From the NCBI GenBank assembly GCA_002633005.1, contig NMRA01000424.1:202777-263782 (forward strand): 61,006 bases of DNA, read 5' to 3'. This document shows positions 3,370-41,637 of the stretch, piece after piece (within the stretch, counting starts at the first letter, position 1; the number at the start of each line of letters is the position of its first letter). The DNA comes from Phoronis australis (lineage: Eukaryota > Animalia > Phoronida). The translations under genes were made by a program, and so were the position numbers. A model generated the notes under the pieces. It saw nothing but the letters and a program-made list of their open reading frames with translations. It made no database searches and was not told the origin of the DNA.

Positions 3370-6300
3370 GTATGGAGCAATCTTATGCGTTGGCTTTAGT
3401 GCTAGTTTCTTTTTTACGCCGATTATCCAATTAACCGTTCTTCTTCCACGGATTGCTTGCACGTCACAACAAATTATCGAAACTGGTTTTACTTCATTTT
3501 AAGTTTTTAGTATTTTAATACCAACAAATCGAATTTCGGATAAAATTTTGCTGCAGCCTTTTACGTGATAGTTTTAAGAGTACAATGTATTTTTAACGAG
3601 GTGACAATCCTTAATTGGTGATCGTATTTCGACAACCGCCAGTTACAACTACAAGTACAAAACTGGCGTAGTGCATTTCAGCTACAACGTCTGTCAAAAG
3701 TGTAAAGCACGTGGCTATCGTTAGGGAGGGCAATCAAAAAGTAGGTCACGGTGCTCCATATCTGCCTCCATGTAAAACCCACGTCGGTAAATTACCCGAT
3801 TTCAGACTTCAAAGTTATCTATAAGGCAATTTTGTGTTATAAATCATTACCTTAGTCTTTATTTGTAAGTTTGTAATCTTTTTGTCTCAAATTATCGCTG
3901 ATAAATCATTTTTGTAAGCTTTTTTTAGCGCTCGATTTTCCGCCATGCGATCAACTTTCGAAAAAGTACCTCTTGTTCCTCCTATCCAAAAGAGCACTAT
4001 ACTCTCAAATACAAACATTAAATTTGGACAGGATGTAGTTTAGATGCGTGCGCATCTACTCAAGTTGTTTTCTCGAAGTCACGGCAAGTTTTCATGGCGA
4101 GTTTTCGATCGTCCGGAAGGCTTAATTTTGGTCGGTCGGGAGATTGACGTTTTTCCAGATTTGCGCAATATGCCCCCCCCCCCCATTTTTAGATGAGGAG
4201 TTTATCGCTCTTTTATTTGGTAATTATTTCATTTTCAGAAATTCTGTCAAACTGCTGCTCATTGGCACTTTTCAAACAGCAGTCGTTAGTAACTAAGTCG
4301 CCGCATGTCAGCGCCACCAGCGGCTACATTGAAGTTCAGTGGCATCGTAACTTCACCGTTTGAAATAAAGTTGTTACAAAGTTTTTGTTGCTTAAATGAT
4401 GAAATCCTTCATGTTAGGAGTGATTTGTTTTCCCAAATGGTCGTTTGTCTACTTTCTGATGTTTTTTGCCAAGATACGATCTAATAGTACATGGGTGGCA
4501 CCCAGTACTGAAAAAAAGGGGGAGCTATAGCCTCCCCCAGCCCCCTGTTACTGTCAGGCAATGATGTGTTGCCCATGTAGTAGTATTCAGGGGCAGATCT
4601 AGGATTTTTAGATAGGAGGGGGGGCAGGGCAGAGTGTTACGCAGGATTTTACCCATAAGATATTTGCACCCTCAAACTGCCAAATGAAATAGAGTTTTAG
4701 GGGGGGGGGGGCATGGGCCAGGCCCCCTTGCCCCCCCCAATCCACCAATGTGATCTTGTGATTTGAAGTGAAATTTCCTCCTAGCTCAGATGTGGTGTCT
4801 TTGCTCTTTGCCTTTTAAGCTGTGTAATCCATTGTTTTCGTCAAACACGATGAGCCTGTTCTATATGCTAACAACACACTTAAACAGCAATATCTCTGTA
4901 GAAATCGATCCAAATTTTATATAATACACACCACCCTGTTTGTCTCAATGAGACGAATCTTTTCATATGCACAAGTATATTCTTTTATTTTTTACTAAAA
5001 TTATGTAAAAAGGCAGATATTTTACGCATAATCGTCGCATTTCAACGGCCATTTTCTCATCAACCGCTCATCCAATTTTTCTGATTTTTGCACCATTTCA
5101 TTTCTCCACCAAGGGCTTTTCAAAAATGTATGACACATGGGTATTGTAAAAAAAATAAAAAACGTAGTCCTCCCTACTATCGTCAGCTGTGACACAGCGA
5201 CAATGTGCTTGTTCATTCAGCCATCCAGTTATGAGTCACTAGCAAACTAAATTTCTAATAGAAAAAACACACAGAAACAACGAGGAAGTGATTGTGCGAG
5301 GCTGTGAAGGCCAATGAATGACGTCACCGGCGAATTATTTGTTTTTGTCTTTTCAGTTTTCGAGGGCGAATTTCGAATTTATAGCAAAAATGAGGGTTTT
5401 GAAACTAGTAGTCTTTACTTCATAAACAGCAAACACATACAGTTACATTTCAGGGAAGAAGGCTAAAATAAAATTTACCTGCGTCAAAGCGTTGAAGAGC
5501 TTTTTGTTCATACTTCAGTCCGCACCGTCCTTAACAACACGTTTCAGCGGGAACATGAGTGACGTCACAGCGTGCTCGCTGAAATTTTCAACTAGGTTAA
5601 GATGCCCATGCCCAAAATTTGTTGCACAAACTAATAAATTTGTACCATAACACAACGTGGAAACTATTTTATCGCTAGAAAAGTAATGACATTAATTTTG
5701 TTTTCCAAAATAAATACACTGCTTAAACACTGTTGAGCCACATCTAGAAAAAACATGTTCAGCGAAGAAGTAGCCGTATTGCAAGGCGCTCTTTTGTTGC
5801 ACAAGGGTCACCTGAAAAAGGTGAAATAGTAATCAATTTCATCGGTGAAATTTTATTTTGAAAAGTCTAGGGAACATAGTTCATGGCCATTGTTTTGTCT
5901 TATCTTGTTTTATATATCCCTGCCCGCATAGCCATAGTCTCTGCTGGCAGGCGACTGTGAGAGCCAGAGTCTGAGAGGCAACACGGACCACGGTTGACCA
6001 CCACAGTTGAGCTCCTATAGGCGCTTCTTATGCCAGAAGCTTTTCGGCAAATTATGCCTCGCACTGACTAAAATATCAGTCACGTTGTTATAAATACCTT
6101 TTGTTCATGTAGGGACACATTAGGAGGCCGTCGATGTATTTAATTCCTTCCAAATCGAACAAATATCAAACAGTTTCTTCGAGCAGTCGCTCGTTCAGTT
6201 CTCAAAATTGATAACTCGCCCTTTTTTACACTGCAGGCGGCAGTTGGTATGACGGCTGAAAAGCTTCTGGCATATGAACTGCCTACAGGAGCTACACCAT

Positions 6301-9300
6301 CTCTACCCAGCTAGAGACGGCGGTCACGGTCTGTAGGCAGTGTTGTGAAACGTGCCTCCGGTGAATCATATATGAGCCTTTGTTAGCCACTCGTTAATAA
6401 GCAATTGCCTATTAGCTAAGTGGTTAGCACACTTGCCGGTTAAATCGGGGTCGCTGGTTCGTTTCCCGGCTATTACGACAATTGGCGTTGTGGGCAGGAG
6501 CAAGCACGCCACCTGGCAGATGAACACAAAAAATTCTACTCCTGGAACGTCACAAGATTCTACTTCTGGACTTTTACTTCACCTGGATCACCGCCTGACA
6601 CTTGAACCCCAAGATTGTGTCGCGTTAAGGTCCTCGACTCGTGGTCTAGGATCACCATCAAGCATGCTGTCTGAGGTCCGAGAGTCCATGTAGTGCTTCA
6701 TCGGTATATCATCTGTTTGCCGACCACGCCAGTTGTCGTAATAGACGGGAATCCAACCAGTGACCGCGATTTAACTGGCGAGCCTGCTGACCATTCAGCT
6801 AATAGGCAATTGCCCGTTACAGACTGGCTAACAAAGGCTCATTATGATTCACTGGAAGCACGTTTCACAACAGCAGTGCAGCACTGAAATACGCCAGAAG
6901 TTTTTCGGCGAATTATGCCTCAGACTGATTAAAACATCAAAGTCACGTTGATATAAGTACCTGTTGCGCTTTGACGGACACCTTAGGAGGCCGTCGATGT
7001 CTTTAATTCCTTCAGTTCTAACTCAAACACTCTCGTGATCAAACTTTTTCTTCGAGCAGTCCTTCATTCAGTTACCCAAATCAGTAACTGGCCATTTTTA
7101 ACACTGCACGGGCCAGGAGTGATGTCATATCTCTTGTTTTGTGTGTGCGATGAACCATTGATGAGATGCCAAATCTCGAGATGAAATTCATCAGCAATGT
7201 GCATGGAATGATGGTATCATGGTGACCTGTTTTGTACTTCTAGGATGAGGCTACAGATACGAGAGAAACTCACAGAGTTGTCAGTGAGGCAGTCTATGAA
7301 ATTATCATAGGACTATGGACAAAACACACTGAATATGAACGTGATTTCTGGAAGTTTAAGGTACGTATTTTACAACTTACCGCCTCATTAACTCTGTTGA
7401 TCTCTTTGCCTGTTATTTAAGTTGGGTTCTGTTTCTGGTATTGGGTGCATTTTGCTCACATTGACTTCATAGGTGATTCATCTCGTGCTTAATTTTGGGT
7501 TGGCTGACTGAACATAAAGGAAGCAGTGTGGCCTTGTGGGATAAGTGTTTGCTTCCTTTATTCAAGGTCGTGTTTTTTTTTGAGTAAAATTTTGCTCTGT
7601 GGTGTTACATTCACGTTGGCCTTCGTATATGCCCGGGTCTTAAGTTGGTTGTTATCTGAGTGGCTTCTTATTTTTCGTTTAAACAGTGACATTATATCTG
7701 CTTGCCATCTTAGTAATGCCCTTTTTATTTACACGACTTACCGTTGTCAGATTGCCCTTTGAAGTTGTTTCAGGGCTTGGAAAGAAGTTGAAATCAGGCT
7801 CTTCATGTTGGCTGGTCACTGTGCGTCGTTTTAATCCACTGAACTTGGTCTTACAGAATAACCAATTGTCAGCTTTTTGCAAACCCGTAAAATGCTTCTC
7901 ATGTTTATGGGGAACACGTTGAGACCAAATTTATAACGGTATGTAGCCTACATCAAATGTTCCCTTCTTGGACCTGGCACACGCTCGTAGCTGCTTTATT
8001 GTTAGGGTTGTGTGGAACCTTTTTGGCTTATCCACATATCTTTGTGTTTTGTCAAATACCTACAAAACCTCACATTTAACTCAGTAAAGTATATTTTCTG
8101 AGAGTAGAAGCCTGTAGAATTTGATTTTTGACTTTATATCAATCTGCCGTTATTTGGGTCAGGTGACCACGGCTGTTTGATAAATTGATGGCAAAGCAAC
8201 AGAATCAATAGCATGACCAAGTTTTGTTTGACATATTATGTGTTCAATATGAAATCTCAAAAACGCTGTCACAGTTTTCTGAAGTATTATTTCACTCATT
8301 TGCGTTTGTACAATGTTTGGATTTTTTTCATATAAGTCACGGCAGTCCTATTTTTGATAACCCCTCGTGCGTGATTGGGACAATGCAATTCCTGGCAGCA
8401 TTTTGGAAGACAGTGCATAAACTGGCGTATTCAAAAGTTTCATGTAATTCTGGTCAACAATTGGATATTTTTCTAGGGTCCTATATGACCCCTACGTAAC
8501 ATTAAACTGAATACACACCATTCTGTCACTTTGCAATGCATACATAGTTACCACCAGTGATTCTCATTATAATAGACTGATGCTCCTAATTGACCTATAG
8601 CAAGCTCCGTCCCCTTGTGAAATGTTGACAAACAAACAGTAAGTTTTACCCGGCAATGTGTTGTTTGTCAGGAAAAAAAGCGGCTTGGAAACCTAGGTGT
8701 GTCACAAATGCTGTGTTCTAATTGGTTAGTTAAACCGTCAAAATCCTGGCGATAGGTCAGTTCTGGAGAAGGGCACAGCTTGACATACATGGGTGCATGT
8801 GCTAACTTTGTTGTCGTTTCTATTTAGCTGACCACTATCTTAACACTGAAGATTGTCGAACACACAGACATGTTTGCCAAAGATCCGCAGGTGTCAACAC
8901 TCTTCAGTCGCTACCAGGTGGAGTTGTTTGCCTTACCGCCTGTAGATGTCCTTCTATATTTACACGTAGTGCAAGACTGCGATTTGTGGGCAGAAGTAGC
9001 AATGGTAAGAGACTACAGGAGTTTTACATTCACTTGACAGAATTGGGTCGCACTCCGCTGAACTTGAGCAAACTTCTTGCCAGAATTATTTGGTTGTTGG
9101 GAACTTTTGTCTCAATGAAATAGCAATTCTGTCTATTAAGTTGAACATGTCATTGTGTATAACCGCAAGTTGTTTAATTACTAAAATGTAGTTGTGCACT
9201 AAATTGTCTCAGTTTTGACGAAGTGTATATAGAGCAAAGCTTGTCGAGATTTTGTTGACATTTAGCCGGAAATGAAACGGGTGCTAGTCAAAAAAAAATG

Positions 9301-12300
9301 GTTATGTGGTCGCCATTCTGTGCATCAAGATTTTGTCGAATTTCGAAGTAGTCCAGTTTATTTTGAAAACTAATGTTAGAATATATTACTGTTAAATTTC
9401 CCCAGTTTTGAACACAATATGCTGGGCAATGGACATTTCATTTTGCCAAATTTGTTATAAAAAATAACTTTTAAGAATCTTTTCCGTTTGATTAGCACTG
9501 TTTGTGTGAACATTTGCAATCAGTAGTAAGCCTTTGAACAGTGCAAAGATGTTGAGCTTTGCTTTTGTCGCAAACTGAAGATTTTTTCCATTTCTGTGGT
9601 GAGCAAGTTTCAGATAGTCTTCTAGTGACAGTGATGCATTGAGTTTTTCCAAGGTGTCGCTGTAAAGAATGAGTGTGCCATGTAAATGATAACTCGTGAC
9701 AACTTCCTTCAAAATACATCTCAAATCTTGTCTAATCTGGTGTCTGACATTTCCGGCCAAACGTTTTTGTACTAGATCTTGCGGGAATAGTCAGATGTAG
9801 AGTGCCCACATTTTTGAACCAATTTTATCCACTGACTAACGCGCATCAACTGGTTCTCAAAATGCGGGCAAGTTATATCCGACTATTGTCAGATCTTGCT
9901 ACAAATGATGCAGCCTTAGTTGTTAGTTTCTAGTTTATTTTGGTCTAGGAAGTAATCAATTGAATTTTACTGTTATAGGGAATCGAAAAATCTTTCTTCT
10001 GGCATGTCAGGTCTTGGATTTTTCCTTTTTAGGAATTCCTCTTTTTTGGTTTCGATTTCCTCTTATTTGATTTCCAGTTTCCTGTTTTTTCGTTCCTTTT
10101 TGTCATTATTTTGACTTCATGCAAAAACATTGATTTCAGTTAAATTTTACAACCCAAAAAATATTTCTATCACACAAGCCTATTTGTAGATCGATACATC
10201 ACTGGAAAATTTTCCTCTTTTTGTCATTGGTCATTCTGAGCCTTGTTCGAATCAGTGACCGTGCCCAAATACAGCATTTTAGGCAGTTGTAACACTAAAT
10301 CCATGGTGCTTCAATACAACTGGTTTACAAAATCCGTTTTCTTCATTTTTCAGGCAGTTCAGCTATTTCCTTTGTATCTATGCGAGGAATTCATGAAAAT
10401 CATTACCCAGAATGCATCTGTCCATGGTGATGTCTTAAACAGTGCTTTACCTCTGAGAATGCTATGCCAGTGTATCCTGCAGATGTCTGAGCAATGTCTG
10501 TGCATAATTAACACGGCCTGCTGCAAACAACGCCGCTCATGCATGTCTGCTGAGATTGACATGACGAGTCAGCTGCAGCATCTTTCTCAAGACTGCGGGT
10601 TTGTTGCTGGAAATGATAACTCATTAGATGCCATGTGTCAAAATTTGTCTTGGAAAACATGGACAAAGAAGATAACGGAAAGCGACCACTCAGTGTCCAA
10701 GAGCAATGTTTGTGTTGTTGTGACTTTGTGTTTGTTAAGAATCGCTAGATGTCTGGCAAATACTGAAATGATAAGCACTAAGCCTTTCCAGTCAGACCTC
10801 CATCCGTTTAATGTTAAAAGTGATGATGACGTCCATCGACTTCACTCAATGATTGCAAGTTCTAGGGCGAAAAAAGACATTGAAATTGTTAGTGCAGTGA
10901 GAAGGACAACGCAAGCTTTGATAGATGTTGTTAAGGAAATGGTGCAGATTTTCCCGGACTGCGTAAAAGATGTGGTGACAGTCCAACTGACGTCGTTTAG
11001 CAACAATTTGTTTGTGGACAACTGCTTTTATGGCAGCTGCAGCAACCGATTGCCAAAAAGAGGCTTGGATGTAGCAGCGGAGTTTGTGGCGTGTGTCCGA
11101 GGAGATATAGAACAATTTGAGTTGTCATGTGACAGCATAAGTGTTTTGAAAAGTGTTGTTAGTGAACTTGAAGCATTTGTGGAATCCACTGGGAGTTTCC
11201 AGGATCCTGAGGTTCCAGAGGACACAGCAGTAGACATCGGTGACATCTTGATGAGATCCAATGAACTATTCATCTCCGATGGTAATTTCCTGTTTACTCT
11301 AAGTTTAGCTTGAACATAGCGTTTTGCATGTTGAACAAGACCAGTTCAAAGAATAGGATTTTAGACATTTCACCTTGTGTTTGGACCTAAGATACAATTT
11401 TTAGAAACAACCCTGTGTTCTCCACGACCTGTTTTGACTCGACACGGTAACAGGTTTGTATTTTGCCACGTCGAGTTTGGAGAAAGCGTGTCAAGTTTGA
11501 AAATTGCTGCACCAGGTTTCAAACCTTGGCTGGCGTGGTACTTCAGCCCTCATTATCTAGTCACTTTACCAAGAGGCAGTTAACAGTATGGTATTCGACG
11601 TAATATGGCGCCCGGGGCCCTTAGTAAAATTCGTTTCGGGGGGAGACGCTTATTGTAACCCAAGGCAGTTAAAACCCGGTCTCTGAAACGGGTGAAATCG
11701 GAAGCTAGGATTCATCAAATTTACGCTATGTGATGTATCCACAAAACTGTGGTGCATTGCAATCAATCTTCGTTGATAAATTACTATAATTTTATAGAAA
11801 ATTGCGCTGAAATCCCTGGGCGAAAACTCGTCGATGCGCCGCTGCCTCGTGATCGTCGACAGGGCAGCTTGAATAAAATATGGTTTTGACTCAACAAATT
11901 ACCTGAAATCCTCACTTAAGTTTTCCAAGTAGCGTCCCTAAGATTTTAAGCTTCTGTGGAGTCGGTATTAAGAACAAGATCCATTTAAATCTGCGCAAGA
12001 TCGTACCCAGCAACATGAGAAAAATGTCTGGACGAACTCACGTGTCGTAGTCACGTTTTGACGATCATCTGCATGTGTGAGTGAGCGAGCACGTGCGTGT
12101 CATCAGCGTTCGTTTGCCGGAGTAAACGCAATGTAACAATTTAGGCGTACATTGTAACTAAAGATTGTGAAATAACTTAATAAGCAGTATCACCAGAACA
12201 CGTTTTATACAGCACTTGCTGATCACATGTACTATTAAAACGTGCGAGAATTGTCTCAGTAGGGCCTAAGGCCGAAAGTCATTGAGTCGCCGGGTGACTG

Positions 12301-15300
12301 GATGCGTGACAGTCTGAGTTATTTTCCGGGAGATTCGGGGGCCGAGGTGTCCACTTTGAGTGGGGCATTTTATTAGGTACTTTACTTTAAAAACACTTAT
12401 TATGAATACATTAAAAAGGGATTAATAAAGCAATCTCTCTTAAAAATAACGCAACAGTTTTTACGGCATTAGAAATTTTCTGAAATAACTGCCAATATAT
12501 ATTTCTAGCCGATGTGCTACCCGAAAACTAATGTCTGCGGTGACAAGTGACACTTATGTAGCACGCACTTCCTGGCCACGTGCTTTTAACAACAACTTTT
12601 TTATTCATGAGACCGTCGTCAGCTGAATGGGCACTTTGAGCACAATTCGCGGTTTTCACGTGTAGGCCCTACATAGTGTCAAAAAGTATGTCACACGTGA
12701 CCAAGTTCAGTGTACATTTTTGAAACATACATAAATACCTCCAGTGGAGATGTGAAGGCTATAGACTGGAGAAAAGACAGTGATGACAACTGATATTGAA
12801 CTCTAGAAATTAGCGTCGAGTTTGGAATTGGTATTGTGGAGAACACTGCAACCTACTGTTGAAATTTGAACATTTCCGAAACTGGAAGTTGGCATCATGT
12901 GTTGAGTCAGAAATTTGCCACTTCTTATACTTACGAATCTGTCCCCCATTGGTTAAAGCTCTTTCAGTAAAGTACATGCTGAGGCCAATTTCATAACGCT
13001 GAATTGTCGTAATGAAGCGTTATTTTCTTTGACTGGATGGAGGTTTATAGTCCCTGCAATCTTTTGTGGTTTGGACAGATTCTTTGTAATCAACACTGAG
13101 ACCGGATTCCTTAAAGCTGTGAAACCCATCCCCATTCCGAAGAAAGCTTTAGTCGTGTAATGGTCGGATATAACGTGCTCTCATTTTGAGAACCAGACAA
13201 TTTTCTTTACTGAATAACGGTCATCGTACGGGTCCTCAAAACGTGGGCACGTTATATCTGACTGTTACCATTAATGTGCACTCTTAGGTGATCTGATGGA
13301 GCTGCTGAGCACAGACAATCTACAAAGTACAACGCTTAGTCCTGATTGGCTGCCATGCCTGGAAAGAAATAAAGATAGACTTGTATCAATGGAGGCTGTC
13401 CTTCACCTTGCTCGTCTGGCGGAGAGCTTATACAGGCTGGGCCATGCAGGGTTTGCTTGTATCAACCAGGTAAGTATTAAGGGCGCGACTTTTAATGAAA
13501 TTGTAATTGAATTGCGATATGATTCTTATTTCCAATTTTCGCCGTTAGGTGTCTAGCAAAGTTACAGCTTATGTGTATGTTTGGGAGAGTATTATTGAGA
13601 TATTGAACAAATAAACAAATCTGCATTGTTTGGAATCTTATCATATTTAAAAATTTTGTTGCTAAAATTGGTATGAGTGGTAAGTAAACACTGCCATAAA
13701 AATACTTCAGTTTGGGGCACAATATGAAAAACAGGTGAAATTTCATTTCATCAAGTTTCTTATCAAAAATAACTGTCCAACAAAATTTACTTTGATTTTA
13801 GCATATGATAGTGTTTGCGGCGAAGCTATCACCAAACAATGTTTTCTAAACTTTTAAGCATTGCAAAAGTGTGGCAAGCCTTTGAAAAATAGAAATATGG
13901 CAATTTTAGCAGTGAGTTTTATCCCAAATTGAAGAATTTTTACTTTTTTGAGAAAAATCAATTAATTTGACGAACAAGAACTGAATCAAAAGTAATCAAA
14001 TTCATCTTAAAAAGGAACTGAATCAAATTAATTTCTTATCATCCCATCCCTTGTTTGCACCTTATAAAAGACTTACTGTAAGTGAGTAGTGGGGTATTCA
14101 ACATTTCCTTTCAAAACCAGGGACGTAGTCTGCAATGAATGATACATGTGTGTTCCATATTAAAGATTAACATTTTTCTTGTCAATAAGTCGATATTTGG
14201 CAATAGATCAATTCAGCGACAATTTCTTTTCATTGGGAAGTAACAGCCGCTTTAAACAATTAAAGAAAGTGAATTAACAACTCTCAGTAGGGACAGAATC
14301 GGCAATATAATTTCGTTACATTTAGTGATGACTTATGTGATGTCTAAGTGCAACACCATAAATGTTTCTAGAATGCTTTACCATGGGAACTGCAATTTTA
14401 AGGGTTCATTCATTCGGAAAAAAGATCTGGTTATACCCTGGCAATGCCGAGTTTGATGAGACAGAGCTGCGCTTTTAATTTAGCAATCAACGCTCTCTAT
14501 TGCTTACTAGAAGATACATGTTTATTACAATATCCACTGTGAGTTTCAGAGTTGACTAGTTATTTATAATAATAATAGTCTGTCCCAAACTGAAGTTGAT
14601 TTTTAATCATTAGTCAGACTGTTTCTGACTTATTTGAAGAATCGTGCAGTTTGGAAACTTTTTTATCTATTTTTTTGTTTCAGCTTCTGAGTTGGTCGTT
14701 TTCACAACTTCCTTCTGTCCTGCAAGAGGCAGTGCTCTGTCACGTGAGCGCGGAATTTAGCTTACTTCAGCGAGAAGAGGTTTCATCGTACTATTCCGAC
14801 GACGAGGGCAGATTAACTTTGGCGTTTAACAAACTGGCCAATAGTGACTCCCTTAGCCAGAAGGTACTCACCCAGAATGAATCATAAGTGGCATAAGAAA
14901 AACTGAACCATAATTTAGAGAATTGTAAAAGCGTTTTTGAGATTTCATCTTGTACATTATTTAACATCAAACAAAATTTGGTTTTGTCATTGATACCTGA
15001 TAACCTTTTTTGGTCAGATGTAGCTTTCGTTTTTGCTAAGTTTTAGTAAAAGACATGGTCACACGGTCCAATTAACAGGAAATAGACTGGTTATGAAGCC
15101 AAAAATCAAATTCTACGAGCTTTCTACTTTCAGAAAATATGTACTTTTACTGACAATCTATAGTTCTGTGGATAATTGGCTGAATACGCCAACAAGTCCT
15201 TAACAGTGACGGATTTAGAGGGGGAGCCAAGGGGGCCATGCACCCCCCTCCCAAAATTCTCCTAAATTCCATTTGGCAGTTCGGGATTGCGAATGTCTGA

Positions 15301-18300
15301 CGGGCAAAATCTTAACCAATACTCTGCCCTGCCCCCATCCCCCAACTCAAAATCCTGGATCCGCCCCTGCTTAAGGTCTCATATAACTTGAAAACGTTAA
15401 AAATCAGTGTACATTGCGTGCTTTCATATTCCACCAATTTTCAATAAGAAGTGATTTTGCAAGTTTTCTTTCAAAATTATAGTCTTAAGGCGTTAGTAGA
15501 TACATGGGTCTCTGGTTTTTCAGGTCTTATCTGAAATCTCATCCTTGGCCATCTGGTCACCACGTGAGGTCTTGAGAAAGGCTATAGAAAGCAGTACCAG
15601 GAACACGGGTCAAGCAGGGGTCATCGTCAAGGTATTGTTAACTGAGATATTGATAACTGTGCCAGGAATCTGTAAAACTAAACCCCAGAGTTATGTACTT
15701 TGAAAAGAATGGTAGTTTAAGCTTGAAATGTATTGATATGTTGTTACAGTTATGTAAAAATTTTCCAATTTGCGACTGTGAAAATTAAAATTATTTTGCT
15801 TAAGCTTGGAGCTTGTCCCAAATTCTAGAAATAGGCAATATCGACCATCTCAAATTCAAGTATTACTGGAAAGACAGTAAAATTACCCACCCTGTTGATT
15901 GGAACTGCATTGTCCAAAATTTGAGAAATATGTCGAAGGTTGAAATCGCCCTTTTTACCAAATTCCAGAATAAGAGCATTCATTTTTGCGAAGTTTCCTG
16001 TGTCTCAAACTCTAGAGACTGTCCCAAATTGGAGAATTGTCTTTTTATGATTTGTTGTGGTTAAGTGCATTTTCAATGTATTCTCACGATTTGTTATCTT
16101 TAGATTTAATAGTGCTTGTGCTGTGTGTCATCTGTTCTTTTTATCGAAAGGGGAGCCAAACAGTGTCGCACAGCCAGAGATGGCCAAACTTCATTTGATT
16201 TGAAAATTGACTTATCACATCAAATAAAATTTAAAGTTTATGCGAAGCATGCCATGCAATAGGTCACTTTTCAAGTCGAGACTTAAGTGTAGTATGTTTT
16301 AGACTTTCGTACTGTGCCTTGACTTACAGTAACTCACCTATTATTTGGCCAGAGTATCTCTGAGCCTGTCTGTTGCCAAGCTTTGTGTACTGAATTGCAT
16401 TATATTTTTTGTTTCTACCTTAGTTTTCTCTTTGCAACGGTTTATGCAATGTGTATCACAGCACGTGGAAATCACTGTACGTATTTAAAGAGGCACTCCT
16501 TTTCACTGTTTCAACACAAAATAGAAGAAATGTGCCGAATTCTCTGAAGTTAAAGCTGCATTTCATCATTTTAGCTGGCTAAAATCAAATTTGATTACTA
16601 GACCTTATACTGGGACAGTCCTAAACTCAGTCTCGTGATACTCCTCATTGTGGCAGGATTCAATTTCTGTTACCTGCTCAAGTCAAAGACATTGCGTGCA
16701 TGTGCCATTTTCAAATTCACAGTTTTAAGGGTTGGCCAATCCCTGAACTCTGAACACTGAAGTGTTTTATTGAGTAACTCATGGTTTCAGTGTTCTTGCT
16801 GATAACAGAAGTAGAATTTTATCGTAAGGAATGTTATAGGACCAATTTTATGAGAGGAAAAGGTCTATTCAATTTTTGTTTTTTAGCAGCCTGAAACATT
16901 TCCTTTCTGCATGTGTTTCACCATTCAGTTATAACTGAGTCTTTAAGACTGGCTTTTTAGGTAAGTAGCCTAGTTTGATTTCATTTTTCCGAACACTGAA
17001 CCAGGAGCAAATGCATATTTAAACTTGTGCTACAATTTCAGCTCCTGCAAGAGTTCCCGTCCATATGCTCTGCACAGGAAGTTGATGGTACCACCTTGAT
17101 GTGCAGCTCTGTTAAGTCTTCGCTGGGCATGGCATTAGAAAATTCGACCAATCAGAAGAACTTTGTCAGTTTCATTACGGACTTGCTGAAGGTAGTTGAC
17201 GTTGATTCTTTTCCGTATGACACTGCAGGATTTTGTCATCTTCATAATTTTATAAATCACGTTGCATTTATATGTTGCCTATCACGAATTTTCATAAGGG
17301 CTGTTCCAGCAAAATCTGTGTGGGAGGGGGGGGAAGGCAACTGAAATAAAAATTTATGGGTGTTTGCGTTTGATTTAAATTCAAAATGGCTGGTGGTCGT
17401 ACTTCACAAAAATAAAAATTTACAGGTCGTTGTTGTTTCATTGGGCCATAAATGTTTGATGGTGGGTAATTTTAGTAAATTTTATAAACAATCCGCACAG
17501 AATCAATAACTGAAACAAAAATACAACTTGCAAAAAGCTCTCGACTTTTTCACTCCCTCCGATCTCCTCATCGGCATGCCCATAACACCATTTAACCACA
17601 GGTGCTCGAATTTCTCGTTGGCTAATAACCATATATAAGAAACATATGTTTTCTTAGTAATGAATGATGTTAGTGGTGATGGAGAAACAAATAAACTCAG
17701 CGCCTGTGCAGTCGACCACAAGAACAAAAAAAATTATGGGTTGTTGCATTTCAAACTTATAAAAAATTACGGGTGGTAGGCTGAAGAAATAAGTGAAAAA
17801 TATGGGTGGTGGGTGCGAAAAAAAGGTGCCTTCCCCCCCTCTCCCATACAGATTTTACTGGAACAGCCCTAATATGCCCTTGGGCAATTTCACTGAAATT
17901 TGGGGAAATTAAAGGTAGGTACAAGCCACAAAATACAAAGAAGGTCGATGTGGACCTGTCCATTTTTTCATTAGGCCATCAGTCAATACCGACCTGACGG
18001 TTTCTCATTCGGCCATCAGTCGATACAGACCTGTCAATTTTTTCATTAGGCCATCAGTCGATACGGACCAGTCCATTTTTTATGGGCCCACATATTTATA
18101 TGTAGTGGCATATTTCTGTCATGTGTGGTGTCCACTGCTGTATCTCCTAAACCCTTCACAGTATCTTGATGAGATTTGGCAGATGTTCACCTATGAAGGT
18201 GACGACAGATGACAACAAATTTCGAACTTCTCCGACAACCGGTGTGCCCCCTAGTGGCAATTTTTTACGCTTACCTCTGTATCTCCATAGGTCCTACATG

Positions 18301-20095
18301 GTTTTTTATAAAATTTTGCATTTATGCGTATGTTAGTGAGATGATGCCATCCTCCCGTTTTCGGACGGATTCGAGGTACTTTGCGCCACCTAGTGGCCAT
18401 TTTTACTGTTTTCGAGTCTACTTTTTGGCGTCGGCCCTTCTGTCAACCAAACTGATCTAGGGAGGATTTTGAAAATTGGTATATATTTTCTTACTGTGAA
18501 GAGAGTGGCTGATGATGATTGCCAAAGACTTCGACTGTTGTGGTGCCTCCTAGTGGCAGTTTTGTTTGTTTTTGCATCCATGGCTATATCTCCTTAATGC
18601 TCTACAGGATCTTTATTGAATTTTGCTGGTGTATTTGTATGAAGTTGACAACAGAGGATGACGACTTTCAGACAGATCAGATTACAGGTGTGCCCCCTAG
18701 TGGCAATTTTAGTTTTTTACGTTTGCCACTGCATCTTCAAAGGTCGTCAACGGATTTTCATAGAATTAGGCAAACAGGCATCTATAAGTGAGGTGACGCT
18801 ATCAACCGGTTTTCAGTTGAATTCGAGGTATTTTGCACCACCTAGTGCCTATTTTTGCTGTTTACTGTTACTGACATCTGTCCCTCTGTAAACTAAAGCA
18901 TCCTAAGGATGATTGTGGAAATTGGCATGTATGCTCCTTATGTGAAGGGAAGGGCTGACGATGATTTTCCAACTACCTCGACAACTGTGGCGCCTCTCCT
19001 TAACCGTCTACAGGATCTTTATTAAAGTTGGCAAGTGTATTTATATGAACTTGACAACAAACGACTACTTTCGGATGGATCGAACTACAGGTGTGCCCCC
19101 TAGTGGCAATTTTATTATTTAAATTTTACGTCTATCTTCAAAGTCCTCATTGGATTTTCATAAAATTTGGCAGATAGGCATCTATTAGTGAGCTGACGCT
19201 ATCCTCCGGTTTTTGGTTCGATTCTTGGTATTTTGCGCCACCTAGTGGCCATTTTTACTGTTTTCAAGTCTTTGGCATCTGCCCCTCTGTCAATCAAACC
19301 ACTCTAAGGATGGTTGTGGAAATTCGCATGTACGTTCCTAATGTGAAGAAGAAGTCTGACGATGATATTTCGACTTCATTTACTGTGGTGCCTCTTAGTG
19401 GCAGTTATGTTTTTTTTGCGCCTGTAGCCTCCTCGTGGCAATTTCACTTTTTTCCTTTTCTTTGGTTTCTCAGAATTTCCTTGACGGATTTTTAAATTGG
19501 TAAATATCTTTCATGACACATACCAGTTTTTGGATGGATTTGAAGTTTTTGCGTCATCTAGTGGCCATTTCTATGTTCCAAATAAACACCCCTAGAGGCA
19601 CACCATTTGTGGTGCATTCATGGGCGCCTTTCAACGTTACGCGTTGCTTTTGTTCATGAAATTCGTCTGCTGCGCTAAGTACCCAGGTCAAGGTTCACCT
19701 CTGAGTGTAGTTTTTCTTTGCTGTGTTACAGCCATTTGAAAACACTGCCAGTGGCCCCTTCACAGAACCACCCCTTCTGGAGCCTCGGCAGCTTTTGAAC
19801 TCGGTGATTCTACCCAATTTGAACAGGGAACTGGTTGATGTCCAGATGACAAATCTCATCATCAAGTTGCTCATTTCTGCCTTGGAGTCGATGTCTGGTG
19901 ACCTTGAACTTTTGAACCGAGATTTTTGGGAAGATCATCTGCCGCCCATGGTTGTCTGCTTGGGTCATGTGATTAACAGCTGTCAATTACAGTTGATTGA
20001 CATTTTTGATCATCGGTATCTGGAGGTGAAGGAACGCAGCATATCTGCTATGGCGTTGATGAAAGATCTGTCAAAAAAGCTGCCACCTATTCATG
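3309..20095 (+). CDS. GEMIN4: Gem-associated protein 4 (SMN complex), spliced and 3'-incomplete: join(3309-3369,4239-4288,7244-7360,8828-9004,10354-11281,13288-13469,14684-14863,15524-15631,17042-17191,19732-20095)
   Basis: All ten exons have GT-AG boundaries with matching phases and give a stop-free frame of about 772 aa. Colinear similarity to human GEMIN4 as recalled: SPDWLPCLERNKDRL ~ SDEWVACLGSNRALF; LTLAFNKLANS ~ LNTTFNQLTQS; LAIWSPREVLRK ~ LVIVHPEVTVKK; LLQEFPSI ~ ILTAFPAL; LLEPRQLLNSVILPNL ~ LLEPDEVLKEFVLPFL. Confidence 0.85.
4239..4288 (+). CDS. GEMIN4: GEMIN4 exon 2 (EILSNCCSLALFKQQSL)
   Basis: Strong acceptor attttcag|; donor tta|gtaact; phase 1 to 0. Position fits the N-terminal ILHGGFLLA segment of GEMIN4. 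Confidence 0.6.
4490..4577. mobile_element. 88-bp MITE with 5-bp TSD
   Basis: Ends CATGGG...CCCATG; TAGTA duplicated at 4485-4489 and 4578-4582. Confidence 0.7.
4588..4750 (+). mobile_element. ~165-bp CAG...CTG-ended MITE family (hAT-like), copy 1
   Basis: CAGGGGCAGATCTAGGATTTT terminus and the gatatttgcaccc..caactgccaaatg core shared with copies at 15204 and 30969; TSD eroded. Confidence 0.7.
5935..6320. mobile_element. MITE-like element with nested inverted repeats
   Basis: tagtctctgctgg... / ...ccagctagagac ends; 6010-6046 is inverted relative to 6258-6295; the internal 6031-6240 segment recurs at 6893-7112. Confidence 0.55.
6341..6872. mobile_element. Inverted-LTR element: two ~140-bp tRNA-containing TG...CA LTRs, each with a PBS (Helenus/TRIM-like derivative)
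   Basis: Arms 6341-6480 and 6734-6872 are inverted copies with about 21 differences in 140 nt by hand alignment. Each ends ACGACA + 2 nt + TGGCGT.GT.GGCA. GCAG is duplicated at 6337-6340 and 6873-6876. Confidence 0.8.
7244..7360 (+). CDS. GEMIN4: GEMIN4 exon 3 (DEATD...DFWKFK)
   Basis: ttctag| ... aag|gtacgt, 117 nt, open frame; VSEAVYEI...FWKFK ~ IVEALREI...FAWKKK. Confidence 0.8.
8828..9004 (+). CDS. GEMIN4: GEMIN4 exon 4 (LTTILTLKIV...WAEVAM)
   Basis: tatttag| ... atg|gtaaga, 177 nt, open frame, phase 0-0. Confidence 0.8.
9788..9885. mobile_element. ~100-bp palindromic MITE, copy 1
   Basis: agtcagatgta..gtgcccacattttgaacc / ggttctcaaaatgcgggc..tatatccgact; homologous to copies at 13161 and 25189. 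Confidence 0.7.
10354..11281 (+). CDS. GEMIN4: GEMIN4 exon 5 (large exon within the 356-aa ORF)
   Basis: ttttcag|gca ... gat g|gtaatt; longest ORF in the window. Confidence 0.88.
13161..13264. mobile_element. ~100-bp palindromic MITE, copy 2
   Basis: gtcggatataacgtgc... / ...gcacgttatatctgac; ends about 23 nt upstream of the exon 6 acceptor. Confidence 0.7.
13288..13469 (+). CDS. GEMIN4: GEMIN4 exon 6
   Basis: ctcttag|gt ... cag|gtaagt; contains SPDWLPCLERNK. Confidence 0.88.
14684..14863 (+). CDS. GEMIN4: GEMIN4 exon 7
   Basis: gtttcag| ... aag|gtactc, 180 nt. Confidence 0.85.
15204..15369 (-). mobile_element. ~165-bp MITE family, copy 2, 5-bp TSD
   Basis: CAGTGACGGATTTAG...GGATCCGCCCCTG flanked by CTTAA on both sides. 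Confidence 0.8.
15524..15631 (+). CDS. GEMIN4: GEMIN4 exon 8 (VLSEISSLAIWSPREVLRK...)
   Basis: ttttcag| ... aag|gtattg, 108 nt; too short for the supplied ORF track. Confidence 0.85.
17042..17191 (+). CDS. GEMIN4: GEMIN4 exon 9
   Basis: atttcag| ... aag|gtagtt, 150 nt. Confidence 0.85.
17298..17869. mobile_element. PIF/Harbinger-type (Tourist-like) MITE
   Basis: ~45-bp TIR GGGCTGTTCCAG.AAAATCTGT.TGGGAG...GAAGGCA; TAA on both flanks. Confidence 0.85.
17944..18080. repeat. ~38-bp minisatellite, about 3.5 copies
   Basis: Unit gtcgatacggacctgtccattttttcattaggccatca at ~17944, 17981, 18018 and 18057. Confidence 0.85.
18080..19655 (+). repeat. Tandem array of ~145-bp CCTAGTGGC units in a ~400-445-bp higher-order period, probably inside a non-autonomous Helentron/HINE-like element
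   Basis: cc(c)tagtggc recurs about every 145 nt; ggtgtgccccctagtggcaatttt at ~18241, 18687 and 19090; T-rich ends. The element class is inferred. Confidence 0.75.
19732..20095 (+). CDS. GEMIN4: GEMIN4 exon 10 (last visible exon)
   Basis: gttacag| ... cat g|gtaag; contains LLEPRQLLNSVILP. Confidence 0.88.
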
Positions 20096-20199
20096 GTAAG
20101 GCTTCAGTTTTAGTTAGTCTTTGAAAGCAGTCAAAAATTTAAGTAAGAATTATTAGTCTTCTTACATGCCATATTTTGGTCACTCCTCGTGACCTATAT

Positions 20200-22829: not shown

Positions 22830-23410
22830 TGACTGCGAATCCGAGTTTTAGATTATGTTGAGCTTGTCTTACGTATTAGCTCGAACGGTTTCTTCACGTT
22901 ATTAGGCAAATATTATTGTTGGTGGTGCAGTCAGAATAATGTTCTTTTTCGCAATTTTAATTGGTTTAAAACACTGGACCATTATCGTTCATAAAATTAC
23001 ACAATTTGCATCCACATTTGTTACATTGTGTGTTGCCTATAGGTATGTCAATTTGGTTTTTGTTGTCGATGTTTGCTCTAACTAAATAATTTTTAGACCT
23101 TTACATTTTCTCCAAGAAATTATAGGTGGATGAGGAAATAAAAGCCAGTTCCACATTTCTTAGTCAGCGTAATAATCCTGGTGTACCTACATCTTTTATC
23201 CCCTCTATTCTTGTTAAACGCAAAATGTGTAACTTTACCAACGGCTATACTTTCTTCCAGTCTTCTCAAACCAATGAAACTTCGAAATGAAACACTCATT
23301 ATTCTGACTACACCAACAACAATTTCATTTACATAATAACATGTAGACAATGTTAAGTCCAATACGTAAGACAATTTCAAAACAATCTACAAACTCGGTT
23401 TTGCAGTCAC
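22830..23410. mobile_element. Fold-back element with ~200-bp diverged inverted arms
   Basis: tgactgcgaatccgagttttagatt...ttgtcttacgtatt...agtcagaataatg is mirrored at ~23215-23410. Confidence 0.7.
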
Positions 23411-33267: not shown

Positions 33268-34163
33268 TGTCAGACAATTGACTGTGGGTTTTTTTAAAAG
33301 GTAGCTATGGTAATAGATTGTGCGTAGATGGACAGTGAATAATCAAATCCATTAATTAATTCATTATATTATAACCCCTAATTAGACAAATGAAACTTAT
33401 TGTTAATTAAGTTATCAACTACAAAGAGTAACTACGCTGGCGCCCTCTTTAAAGATTACTTTAATCAATCAACCTAAATATGCAAATGTCTTATCTGCTA
33501 TCCAAGCTAGGACTCTCCACTTGTTGGATGTCTGTCCTGTTGGTGAATCTTCGAACTACGCACACACTGTATAGCGACAGTGTATTTGCTGGTCACCGAC
33601 TCTGGTGATGTAACACCTGCAGGCAGTTTCTTCTACCCGCGATTCTTCTTGCTGGTCACAGTCTCAGGCTGAATATGCAACACTTCAGGTAGTACCTTGC
33701 TACCCACAATGCAAGTGACAAGCGCTTAGTCAACTTCCTGTTCGTTAAACCTTGCCCTTGCCAAGATCCTGTCTAGAATCCACGAGATGACTCTGCCGTA
33801 CAATTGCTTCTGTACACTGTAGCAAGCCTTTATGTTTCAACTATTAGAGCGCATCTAATTATCTTGTTGATTTCAGCCCATAATATAACATTCTACTTAT
33901 TTAGTGATTTGCTAATAAAAACCACATGTTCATATCTTATCATATTATTGGCTGTTATAATTTGTTCTCAGAATTTTCAAGAATCTCTAGAGTACTTTGA
34001 ACCCAGAACCCAAAGTTGTAAACACCAATTAAAAATAGATTTTGACGTTAAAGTAAATGTCAACAAGTCTGTCCCCATGATTTAAAAGTACATATGCACA
34101 GATTTTGGAAAAATTAAAAGGGATCTATTCTTACTAAATACTTAATCAATATTTATTATGACA
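33268..34163 (-). mobile_element. Solo LTR (896 bp), copy 1
   Basis: TGTCA...TGACA termini; CACGG TSD on both sides; full-length inverted homolog at 54994-55899. Confidence 0.92.
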
Positions 34164-38100: not shown

Positions 38101-40499
38101 TAGCGAACCTTCAAGATAGTGAACCTTCTGGTCAGTGCAGTGTTCAACTTTCCGGCAATGTAAGCTATGAGTAACATGTACTGAAAAATGCAGTCACATG
38201 AAAATTTACGTCAAGCCGTTAACCAACTTAATATTCCTATCCAATGAAATAAGTTACGCAAGAACGTTCTATTTATGGACACATTACATTCGAATTTGAG
38301 TCATGTTCTTCGCAAACAACCGTCGCGGTATCCTCATCTCTGTTATTAAGAATCCGTCTGATCTCAATCACTTAGAACTAAGAGTCATCGTTGCAGTGCA
38401 TACAAGTTTCTTGTCCCCATGTGAACTCTAGTGACGACATTTGCAAATTATCTAAGATTCACCTTTCTAGTAATTCGAGCACCCCCTGCGCATCGATGGC
38501 TACGCTCCAGTTTTAGTTCTCCCGACTTTTATCGTTTAACCGTCAAAGCTCAACTGATACGCATTGGGTTAGGAAGCAATATCAGCAAGTTTATGCATAA
38601 TTCCAGTAGTTATAGACTCATAGACTTTTGACGTAGGCAGTTGCTTAACGTTTGACACGACAACGTTTATTTTAGGTTCTAATTAGACTCCGCCAGATTT
38701 CATTCCCATATGCTTGTACGCACAAATGACTCTCAAACCTTTTCCGTGGAAAAGTGTGTATCGGATTCTCATCAACCAAATAGTGTCGCTGGAGTACTTC
38801 ATTGTTAGGGTCGAGGGTCACAAATTTGCCACATCTAAAATACTAGTAAGAACGCTACATTGTCTAAAAATAACGTGAAATTTGCTATTATTATGTTGAA
38901 CTTTGGTTCTTTTATTGCAATATATTCTCGCGCTAATTCTGTCTTTATATCCCTTCATCTTTGCCTTCTCGTCCTTGTTTTTACTTCTTCATAAAATAAT
39001 GGACTCTTTTGATCAAATTGTGTTCCTCCTATATATATGTTTTGATGGAACTGCTTTCGCAGCCCTCCTCCAAAACTGTGTTAGGAATGCTCCCATAGGC
39101 TCTACTTTGAAACATTCCATACCGCTGTGTTCATCTAATGTTAGATACCTAGTCAATGGTACTTAAATCGCAATGATCTGCTATGACGTGGGCAAATACT
39201 TCAGCAAACTGATTTGTGCCAACACAGAAGTAACAGCACCCGATGTTGGTTGATTTGAAACAATTATAAAATGTTTTGCATCGACTCCACTGCGTCGAAA
39301 ATGATTAATGGCAATGGCCTTACACTTTTAATTTGTGTTCTCAGTTTAGTACACGATTTGAAATGCATACATTCTTTCATAAGTCACGTAGACTACTATA
39401 GTCCTCGTGTACTTATGGTGATTATGAAGTTGCATGACCTTTTCAGTTGAAATTTGATTAATTCTTAACCAGTTTACTGACGAGATCGTATAGTTTTTAA
39501 AAATCTACTGTTGACGAGTCCCTAGGGTTGGCCAGGCGACTCCTTGCAGTCGTTTCTCTGCCTACTTTACACATTCCATATCTTTGTTACGATCGATTCT
39601 ACACGTTAGAGACATATTTGTTTGACTGGTGTTGTATTCCAATATCGAATTACTCATGACCACTCCACACTCCTCATGAACAGTCCAAACACGTTATACA
39701 GGTCCCCACACCGTGAAAAAGCACGGACGCGACCTCACCAGGCGAAGTCGCGTCTCGGTGTTTCCGCGTATTGGGACTCATACCCGGGTGCAGTCTAGTC
39801 GCGTTGGTTGGGAGGACACTTTCAATCAACACAAAGTACGTGCATATCTGTTGTAATGGATATGATAAAATCATTACAGCTGCGTTAACCTGGCAGATAC
39901 ACCTATCTGTTTAACCCAACAGAATGGGAATAGTTGCACAGATGTACAGTATTAGCACCCTCGTGGCGTGCAAAAAACTATTTTGGTCGCAGATTAACAC
40001 TGTCGAAGACAGTTTATCTAACATATAGTAAAAATTCGAAACGGACGCACCCGTGATACTTTAAATCTTGGTTGGTGTGTTCATCAGAATGGTCAGTCCT
40101 GCTTCGATAAATGTTCTTATTAAATCAATTTTGTTGAACAGAAATATGTATTCTGCCAATGCCTACTTCGTCCGAAGACTCCCTTTGTTCAATAAAGTAC
40201 ACCTTCCTGGTTTTATTGCAAATGCAACTCAACGGAACTACAAAAAGTACATGTGTGAGTTCCATTGTTTTGTCAATATGTTGCGATTTTTCATTTGTCT
40301 GTAATTAAATGATCACGCTAAACACATCATTTCTTGGCCAAAGTACGGTAAACGGACAATTGCCTCACAAATAAAAAGTTCATGTTAACTCATCGTTCCG
40401 TCTTATTCAACTAGATATTATCAGGATATGTACAGTTGGGGAACGTGTCGGTTAACTTTCAAGTCACATCCATGTGGTGAAATTTGAGTGAGCGATACA

Positions 40500-41055
40500 G
40501 GGGAAGTAAGCGGGTCATCACCATAGTATACCCTTATGCATTGCATAAACCCAGCCGTTCAGCTAATAGCTGTTTTCAAACCTCTTCGCAAACTCCCCAT
40601 TATGCTTTGTAAAATGAAATCACCGATCCTTTATTAAATAAAAGCAATGTTGTGAATAAGGTTGAATGTGACAACTGTAAGAAATTCTATATTGGACTCA
40701 CCCAGAGAGGCCTCTCTGACAGGCTGAAAGGAAATAGACACTCGACAAAGGTAACATCTACATGCATTGTATTAGCAACCACCATCAAGCCAATTCAGTC
40801 AGTAATACTTGTAAAGTACCTGTTAAGGAATTACTGTATATCAAGGAGTCATTGGTTATTCAGAATCAGAATACTACTGATTCTCTTAATAGCATGCAGA
40901 GCTCAGGGACCCTAACACTATCATGATGACCTGCTTACTTTCTCTGTTTCTCTCACTCTCATTTCACCACATGGGTGTGACTTAAATGGTAATCGACATA
41001 CGTTGCCCTACTGTACATATCCTGATGTCTTGCTGAATAAGACGAAACGTTGGGT
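40500..41055 (+). mobile_element. Penelope-like element 3' fragment (GIY-YIG) with degenerate hammerhead
   Basis: SNVVNKVECDNCKKFYIGLTQRGLSDRLK; then cctgat-gtctt..aagac-gaaacgt at ~41021-41050. Confidence 0.8.
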
Positions 41056-41637
41056 TAACACGTTAAACAGTACATGCACATAGGTGGTTGTTTTCAAGGT
41101 ACCGTTAAGGTTGTTAACCGTAATAGCTCTTAATATTGTGTTACCGTAATTGTAACAGGTATAGACAACTACATCGTTGAACCCCTATATAACCCAATCT
41201 ATTAACATGTTGACTACATGTACATGTACGTGTTCGTGTATGTGCGGTATGGTAGTATTTTCACAAACTTTCAAATGGATTGATGCTTTATCAAACATAA
41301 TGGAGAAAAAAAAATGTCCATGACATTTTTGTAAACAATACGGTCTGTTGTTTGTCCCAGACACATTTTTCACTTAGTTACGTGTTCCTGTACTTTAATT
41401 AAATAGTCATGCCCTACTGTGGTTTCTTAAGATTGTCGTCACACTTTCCCGTCCACGAGTATGCTACGGCAAGCTAAGTTGTTAGAGAACTCAAGTACAG
41501 TGTACGTTGGATTTAGGGATCGTTTACTTTGAAATACTATGATAGTAGCAGGAGTGGATGACCCATGTCACAGTGACGTGATTGACGGAGACAGTAGTCA
41601 TCGGAGTTCTGACGAGAGAATTATTTACGAAAAGTTC

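What the first reader, a model, noticed from the sequence alone, without database searches (positions are those of the whole stretch)
6341..6872. Inverted-LTR, double-PBS, tRNA-promoter mini-element with a single TSD
Seen: two ~140-bp TG...CA units facing each other, about 85% identical. Each carries a tRNA-like block (A-box TAGCT.A.TGG, GTTAA anticodon-loop-like, B-box GGTT.G.TTCC; resembles tRNA-Asn). Each is followed, after the canonical 2-nt spacer, by TGGCGT.GT.GGCA(GGA), complementary to the tRNA-Ser 3' end. There is no PPT, and one GCAG duplication flanks the whole. Established: Helenus-type TRIMs have tRNA-derived LTRs and 4-bp TSDs in animals, but with DIRECT LTRs plus PBS and PPT; Ginger1 DNA transposons are Gypsy-related with TGT...ACA TIRs and 4-bp TSDs. 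Inference: this may be a non-autonomous element primed by tRNA on both strands, or an LTR-to-TIR intermediate moved as a unit. Convergent Pol III promoters could also yield dsRNA inside a GEMIN4 intron.
Basis: partly seen in the sequence, partly recalled or inferred. Interest (0 to 1): 0.85.

Follow-up and report, generated by a model that had tools for sequence, protein, structure and literature searches.

The report
One-off inverted copy of tRNA-LTR mini-retrotransposon
This 532-base insertion is an old, back-to-front variant of an ordinary family of tiny jumping elements that carry a tRNA-like promoter in their end repeats; it likely arose once through a copying accident and is likely a dead end rather than a new kind of mobile element.

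Summary
The anatomy is real. Two TG...CA arms (140 and 139 bp, 85.6% alike) face each other. Each has a Pol III A/B-box pair and a tRNA-Ser-type PBS, there is no PPT, and GCAG lies on both sides inside a host repeat. Contigs of the same species show the arms are LTRs of a multi-copy family whose core runs into a same-direction LTR (2 of 9 listed joints; 0 of 9 show the inverted layout in another copy) with a purine run before the TG. That is an ordinary Helenus-type TRIM, of the same size and primer class as mussel Helenus-2. The left PBS/core junction has depth for only 1-2 contigs. The arms share minority letters and have drifted equally (8 v 8 sites), so they were probably identical at insertion. 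This copy is a minus-strand TRIM whose PPT and 3' LTR were replaced by an inverted LTR+PBS, most likely a reverse-transcription accident integrated as one piece. Both PBSs prime outward, so double priming cannot copy the core. No RNA read came from this copy (0 of 245 at 95% or more), and GEMIN4 was not confirmed. An inverted TRIM pair under one TSD is already reported in maize.

The parts
6337..6340 (+). Left copy of 4-bp target site duplication (GCAG)
   Evidence: left flank aligns to the end of the sister host repeat up to this GCAG
6341..6480 (+). Left LTR (140 bp, TG...CA), inverted relative to the rest; likely a plus-strand strong-stop copy
   Evidence: multi-copy in contigs
6413..6466 (+). 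tRNA-like Pol III A-box (6413-6424) and B-box (6456-6466), B-box degenerate
6483..6499 (+). Left PBS-like stretch, 17 nt, pairing with a tRNA-Ser 3' end at 16 of 17 places with wobble
   Evidence: counted by eye against Aplysia tRNA-Ser-TGA in Fig. S2 of PMC10886601
6500..6506 (.). Inferred junction (about 6497-6506), depth for 1-2 contigs only
6507..6717 (-). TRIM internal region read on the minus strand, lacking its PPT; shared with other copies at about 86%
   Evidence: tables 2, 4, 8; left limit inferred from binned depth
6718..6731 (-). Right PBS (14 nt, family type; pairing with the tRNA stops after 14 nt)
6734..6872 (-). Right LTR (139 bp), the original 5' LTR of a minus-strand TRIM
   Evidence: joined to PBS and core in other copies (records 19, 20, 26)
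6748..6801 (-). tRNA-like A-box (6790-6801) and B-box (6748-6758), B-box degenerate
6873..6876 (+). Right copy of TSD (GCAG), followed by about 9 extra bases with a 6-bp hairpin before the host repeat resumes
6294..6340 (+). Host repeat, part left of the insertion (palindromic spacer and start of a second unit)
6877..7116 (+). Host repeat, part right of the insertion, 77% like 6029-6243

Best explanation
This is a single old copy of a Helenus-type TRIM on the minus strand whose polypurine tract and 3' LTR are replaced by an inverted LTR plus primer site, likely made by a reverse-transcription accident and likely integrated as one piece. Shown: the anatomy, the direct-LTR layout and purine tract of other copies, and the rarity of the inverted junction. 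Inferred: a growing plus strand (LTR-PBS-internal) stalled near the PPT and switched onto the 3' end of a free plus-strand strong-stop DNA (LTR plus a copy of the tRNA primer's last 17-18 nt), copying it backwards. The product had two TG-type (U3) ends; a Gypsy-type integrase of the helper element would have inserted it with a 4-bp duplication into a host repeat. Without PPT or direct repeat it would be unable to retrotranspose again, and the arms have since decayed neutrally. I put about 0.85 on 'one-off derivative of a direct TRIM' and about 0.5 on this particular route.
For:: joints 6341-6603 and 6405-6549 on opposite strands (1 contig each; the second is a 2330-nt record) can only be read as the core running into an LTR in the same direction as the right arm; the other reading of the second is excluded by the depth of 57 at 6492-6506. 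A third joint (6467 back to 6372) is LTR to LTR on one strand. 0 of 9 listed joints are a same-strand LTR-to-core skip. 11 contigs with loose ends before 6341 show a purine run directly before the TG (agreement 0.45). Depth in X1 is 14,241 on the arm, 3,466 on the right PBS, 242-682 on the core and 57 at the junction, of which the locus's own contig is 27.3; 26.7 of the 29.8 excess is explained if LTR+PBS contigs merely run to 6496; of 20 arm differences 8 are left-derived, 8 right-derived, 1 both and 3 unresolved; both arms share 4 minority letters (one at 7% of depth) and a short 3' LTR form, so they were likely identical at insertion. The left PBS pairs with tRNA-Ser for 17 nt while the right/family PBS stops at 14 (by eye). 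Total length (532) matches one tRNA-Ser-primed mussel Helenus-2 (514-580 bp; LTR 141-156, internal 226-268).
Against: Contig sequences could not be read: 8 of 354 pieces and 12 of 114 loose ends were shown, so geometry rests on two joints and binned depth. One further contig of depth about 30 spanning the junction fits the same bins. The tRNA-like extension of the left PBS is only 3 nt (1 in 64 by chance), and no host tRNA was found to match it (0 hits). The PPT position in the sibling family is inferred, and the loose-end agreement is low (0.45). The right flank has about 9 extra bases, so the target site is not perfectly clean. All DNA runs come from one sample, possibly the one assembled.
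Confidence: 0.5

Rival explanations
1. Two complete TRIM cDNAs were joined tail to tail, integrated under one TSD, and the unstable palindrome then lost its centre asymmetrically (both PPTs and both inner LTRs).
For: A maize TRIM with two inverted TRIMs under one 5-bp TSD is reported among PCR-checked arrays (PMC4717578 Fig. 2C legend). Inverted junctions commonly carry asymmetric central deletions (PMC8701086 passages). It also predicts identical arms and one TSD.
Against: The 31 nt after the left PBS core do not match the start of the internal region (p about 0.37). Both breakpoints would have to fall by chance at reverse-transcription landmarks (end of the tRNA complement, just before the inferred PPT).
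Confidence: 0.2
2. A normal direct TRIM inserted with its TSD; later a replication template switch, using the short inverted repeat at LTR ends, overwrote the PPT and 3' LTR with an inverted copy of the 5' LTR and PBS.
For: LTR ends are 5 of 6 self-complementary; this keeps the original TSD, gives identical arms and keeps the element's length.
Against: It predicts the left PBS and downstream bases copy the right ones; they differ at 2 of 14 PBS sites (chance 0.23-0.34, so weak) and completely after base 14, where the left follows the tRNA instead.
Confidence: 0.15
3. A small mobile sub-family with LTR-derived terminal inverted repeats, moved as DNA by a Ginger-like transposase or a Gypsy integrase.
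For: Ends fit the TGTNR pattern, 156-bp arms and 4-bp TSD of Ginger (PMC2836005); Bao 2010 proposed TIRs from two opposed LTRs; both arms share a rare sub-type; one more contig over the junction is not excluded.
Against: 0 of 9 listed joints show the inverted layout elsewhere and junction depth is 0.9-2.1 copies; GCAG is neither the CCGG/CCGT of Ginger1 nor the AT-rich Ginger2 site; no transposase in the element.
Confidence: 0.1
4. Two independent TRIM insertions in opposite directions, fused by a deletion, with a chance 4-bp match.
For: The family is abundant (tens to hundreds of LTR equivalents).
Against: The host repeat continues across the site (loose ends at 6889); the arms share rare letters and a rare short form; a chance 4-bp match is about 1 in 256.
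Confidence: 0.05

Closest known systems
Helenus TRIMs (Kojima 2024, PMC10886601), especially tRNA-Ser-primed mussel Helenus-2_MyGa, -2_MoPh, -2_LimFor
   Same: tRNA-like A/B boxes in a 140-155-bp LTR, tRNA-Ser PBS after a short spacer, about 230-bp non-coding internal region, purine tract before the 3' LTR in sibling copies, 4-bp TSD, total about 530 bp.
   Different: This copy has inverted arms, two PBSs and no PPT. Its LTR motifs were not found in the paper's sequence file (0 hits for the arm motifs tried), so the family looks undescribed there; Repbase itself was not searchable.
Inverted TA-TRIM of maize Zma-SMART (Gao 2016, PMC4717578 Fig. 2C)
   Same: Inverted TRIM units under a single TSD, as a minority form beside direct elements.
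   Different: Described as two inverted TRIMs with a 5-bp TSD and no tRNA-like promoter; I saw the legend and section text, not the figure.
Ginger1/Ginger2 DNA transposons (Bao 2010, PMC2836005)
   Same: TGTNR ends, inverted arms of 40-270 bp, 4-bp TSD.
   Different: Ginger families are multi-copy inverted elements with integrase-like transposases and CCGG/CCGT or RTATAY targets; here the arms are LTRs with PBS, siblings are direct, and the inverted form appears single.
Cassandra and Ajax TRIMs
   Same: Pol III promoter inside TRIM LTRs.
   Different: 5S-derived rather than tRNA-derived, direct LTRs, 5-bp TSD for Ajax.

Membership tests
Helenus TRIM (the family) | tRNA-like A and B boxes inside the LTR | tested here: met
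   criteria from PMC10886601 section 3.5
Helenus TRIM (the family) | PBS complementary to a tRNA 3' end just after the 5' LTR | tested here: met
   (13 of 14 and 16 of 17 pairs with wobble to Aplysia tRNA-Ser-TGA, by eye); host tRNA not available
Helenus TRIM (the family) | Two direct LTRs | tested here: met
   2 of 9 joints for sibling copies; full sibling sequences not seen
Helenus TRIM (the family) | PPT before the 3' LTR | tested here: inconclusive
   purine run in loose ends of 11 contigs before 6341, agreement 0.45
Helenus TRIM (the family) | 4-bp TSD in animals | tested here: inconclusive
   seen at this copy only; sibling flanks not readable
Helenus TRIM (this copy) | Direct LTRs with PBS and PPT | tested here: not met
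   arms inverted, no purine run of 7 or more; a rearranged derivative, not an intact member
Ginger DNA transposon | TGTNR termini, TIR 40-270 bp, 4-bp TSD | tested here: met
Ginger DNA transposon | Target preference CCGG/CCGT (Ginger1) or RTATAY (Ginger2) | tested here: not met
   TSD is GCAG; one site only
Ginger DNA transposon | Multi-copy inverted structure | tested here: not met
   0 of 9 joints, junction depth 0.9-2.1 copies; one more copy not excluded
Ginger DNA transposon | Autonomous partner with integrase-like transposase and the same ends | not testable with these tools
   no whole genome held

The most novel reading that the evidence does not exclude
A retrotransposon caught turning into a DNA transposon: LTR-plus-PBS modules recruited as terminal inverted repeats, forming a small inverted sub-family moved by an integrase-like enzyme, the route that Bao 2010 guessed for the origin of Ginger1.
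Probability: 0.1. Interest if true: 0.75.

Novelty: new member of a known kind. Interest (0 to 1): 0.3.

Why it matters
Modest. It adds an apparently undescribed Helenus-type family and gives a natural example of two LTRs facing each other under one target duplication, the raw structure proposed for the birth of Ginger1 DNA transposons from Gypsy elements. If the reverse-transcription route is right, the locus is a fossil of a plus-strand strong-stop DNA and records how far the tRNA primer is copied. It would matter much more if further inverted copies with their own TSDs exist.

Tried and rejected
No whole genome was held, so copies could not be counted directly. Pattern scans: viral contigs 46 loci and prokaryote genomes 2 loci, all chance (longest match 23 nt among 48 loci); metagenomes 0 for an arm motif; a tRNA-gene pattern for the left PBS gave 0 in viral and metagenome contigs; phages 0. 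ARAGORN 0, Rfam 2 chance-level non-tRNA hits. No RNA holder was listed. The first lay was swamped by the host repeat (15 of 387 joints shown, none within the element). No empty-site joint was among the rows shown, so presence/absence polymorphism is untested. RNA lay: 245 reads from about 18% of one run of another sample, 0 at 95% or more, no start or end pile-ups, strandedness unknown. Host gene identity: nothing significant. Earlier scan notes: none. The sigma-70 scan is irrelevant to a eukaryote. Rejected: tRNA-Asn origin, double tRNA priming as a replication route, assembly artefact (contigs cover the left flank to 6386 and 6357-6671 with 0-2 differences in several runs). Paper searches for a described inverted-LTR double-PBS element found none (searches gave 0, 1, 0, 1 papers, none on point by listing; led to the maize case); subscription journals and Repbase were not searched.

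Full report
Observation. The sequence holds two inverted arms, 6341-6480 and 6734-6872, each TG...CA, matching at 119 of 139 sites with 12 transitions, 8 transversions and 1 gap (K2P 0.16). Each is followed inward by 2 nt and a PBS-like motif that occurs only here in the window (2 matches, 0.09 expected). An A-box and B-box 43 nt apart occur once per strand, in the arms. There is no purine run of 7 or more. GCAG flanks both ends. The whole folds into a long hairpin (z -20.6), which only restates the inverted repeat. The tRNA-Asn and GEMIN4 labels were not confirmed.

Setting. The element interrupts a second unit of a very abundant host repeat: 6890-7116 is 77% like 6029-6243, and the left flank aligns to the end of the sister unit up to the GCAG. 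The two flanks therefore belong together and the duplication is probably real, although about 9 extra bases with a small hairpin follow the right GCAG.

Other copies. No genome was held, so I laid contigs of four DNA runs of one sample and then one DNA run and one RNA run on the left arm plus core. Summed contig depth is not a true copy number, but in X1 unique flanks read 41-63 and this locus 27-32, against 14,241 on the arm, 3,466 on the right PBS, 242-682 on the core and 57 at 6492-6506. Of 9 listed joints, two (6341-6603, side 87; 6405-6549, a 2330-nt record) put the core, read on the minus strand, in front of an LTR in the same direction as the right arm. That is the direct LTR-PBS-internal-LTR layout. 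One joint goes LTR to LTR on one strand, four link LTR to the right PBS as in a normal 5' end (one is probably this locus's own arm), and two are skips inside the LTR. None is a same-strand jump from left LTR to core, which a diverged inverted copy could give. Eleven contigs that stop fitting before 6341 share a purine run directly before the TG (agreement 0.45), as expected if many LTRs are 3' LTRs behind a PPT. The excess depth at the junction (29.8) is almost all explained if LTR+PBS contigs run to 6496 (26.7), but one further spanning contig fits too. Only 8 of 354 pieces and 12 of 114 loose ends were displayed, so this is strong but incomplete.

Origin of the arms. Against majority letters in the two lay tables, 8 arm differences are left-derived, 8 right-derived, 1 both and 3 unresolved; both arms share 4 minority letters, one held by only 7% of depth. 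Most family LTRs are about 15 nt longer near the 3' end (loose ends at 6461, 6469, 6744), while both arms have the short form, which at least one other contig also shows (table 5c). The arms thus come from one sub-lineage and were likely identical at insertion; two unrelated insertions are unlikely.

Primer sites. Against Aplysia tRNA-Ser-TGA in Fig. S2 of PMC10886601 (counted by eye), the left site pairs at 16 of 17 places and the right at 13 of 14, after which the right one stops pairing. No indel in the right PBS was among the 12 of 13 indel rows shown, so the 14-nt form looks like the family norm. That 96% of depth has another letter at 6725, giving an exact tRNA-Ser(AGA) complement, is partly recalled: the letter is, the tRNA from memory. 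The 3 extra tRNA-matching bases on the left hint at a copy of the primer itself, but no host tRNA could be found.

Mechanism. Shown: structure, direct siblings, rarity of the junction. From established LTR biology (PMC10886601 introduction): a tRNA on a PBS extends toward the adjacent LTR and needs a direct repeat to jump, and the second strand needs a PPT; this element has neither, so it cannot retrotranspose and double priming would not copy the core. Inferred: a plus strand stalled near the PPT and switched to a free LTR+PBS strong-stop DNA, giving two TG-type ends that integrase inserted together (0.5). Rivals: inverted dimer with central deletion (0.2), template switch after insertion (0.15), mobile inverted sub-family (0.1), two insertions (0.05).

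Expression. Both B-boxes differ from the GGTTC-type consensus or the base after it, and T-runs at 6572-6575 (+) and 6528-6533 (-) would end Pol III transcripts before the far arm. Of 245 RNA reads laid, 0 were 95% or more alike, so they come from other copies; the run is from another sample and 18% was read. A hairpin in a host pre-mRNA remains possible and untested.

Comparison. The family works like and most likely belongs to Helenus; its sizes match the tRNA-Ser-primed mussel families (LTR 141-156, internal 226-268, total 514-580 bp). This copy fails the direct-LTR and PPT tests and is a rearranged derivative. It fits Ginger ends and TSD length but not target preference or multi-copy inverted form. 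An inverted TRIM pair under one TSD is on record in maize, and Bao 2010 proposed opposed LTRs as the source of Ginger1 TIRs.

Papers seen. PMC10886601: parts 1-4 of 6 of the text, supplement parts 1, 10, 11 and two motif searches. PMC2836005: parts 1-3 of 5. PMC4717578: section 8 and passages; supplement not read (its Table S3 on array types may bear on how common inverted TRIMs are). PMC12859917, PMC6934838, PMC7215508, PMC13570524, PMC8701086: passages only. Others: listings only.

Verdict. Real feature, known kind of family, probably a single dead rearranged copy. Interest 0.3; 0.1 chance of a mobile inverted sub-family, which would deserve about 0.75.

Noticed in passing
window 6010-6293 and 6294-7116: Very abundant repeat with 39-bp inverted ends, present as two tandem units joined by a palindromic spacer (about 6297-6325); summed contig depth over 100,000 against 41-63 for unique flanks. 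MITE- or Helentron-like; the TRIM derivative sits in the second unit.
   Followed up: partly
window 6767-6817 (and 6402-6431): The tRNA-like part of the arms attracts about ten times more depth than the rest of the LTR (116,718; 71,452), pointing to another high-copy tRNA-derived family such as a SINE that could be the LTR promoter's donor.
   Followed up: no
window 6692-6731: A larger, transcribed sister sub-family shares the PBS region but has a different internal region beyond 6692 and a longer LTR (depth step and loose ends in RNA and DNA).
   Followed up: partly
window 6874-6886: A perfect 6-bp hairpin with a 1-nt loop directly right of the element, about 9 bases longer than the host repeat at that place; may be a repair or excision footprint.
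   Followed up: no
table 5c, window 6379-6449: One other contig (depth 40.8) carries a rearranged short-form LTR that returns to LTR sequence right after its end and spacer; direction not given, could be another tandem or inverted rearrangement.
   Followed up: no
window 7244-7361, 10240-11310, 13275-13553, 14600-14884, 17000-17341, 19711-20121: Exon-like open frames of a + strand gene with helical-repeat look-alikes only; no homologue at E 0.001 among 1.84 billion representatives for the longest.
   Followed up: partly
window 33268-34163 and 54994-55899; 42692-46280; 40383-41060; 22830-23409; 17294-17873: Further dispersed and inverted-end repeats typical of DNA transposon remnants.
   Followed up: no
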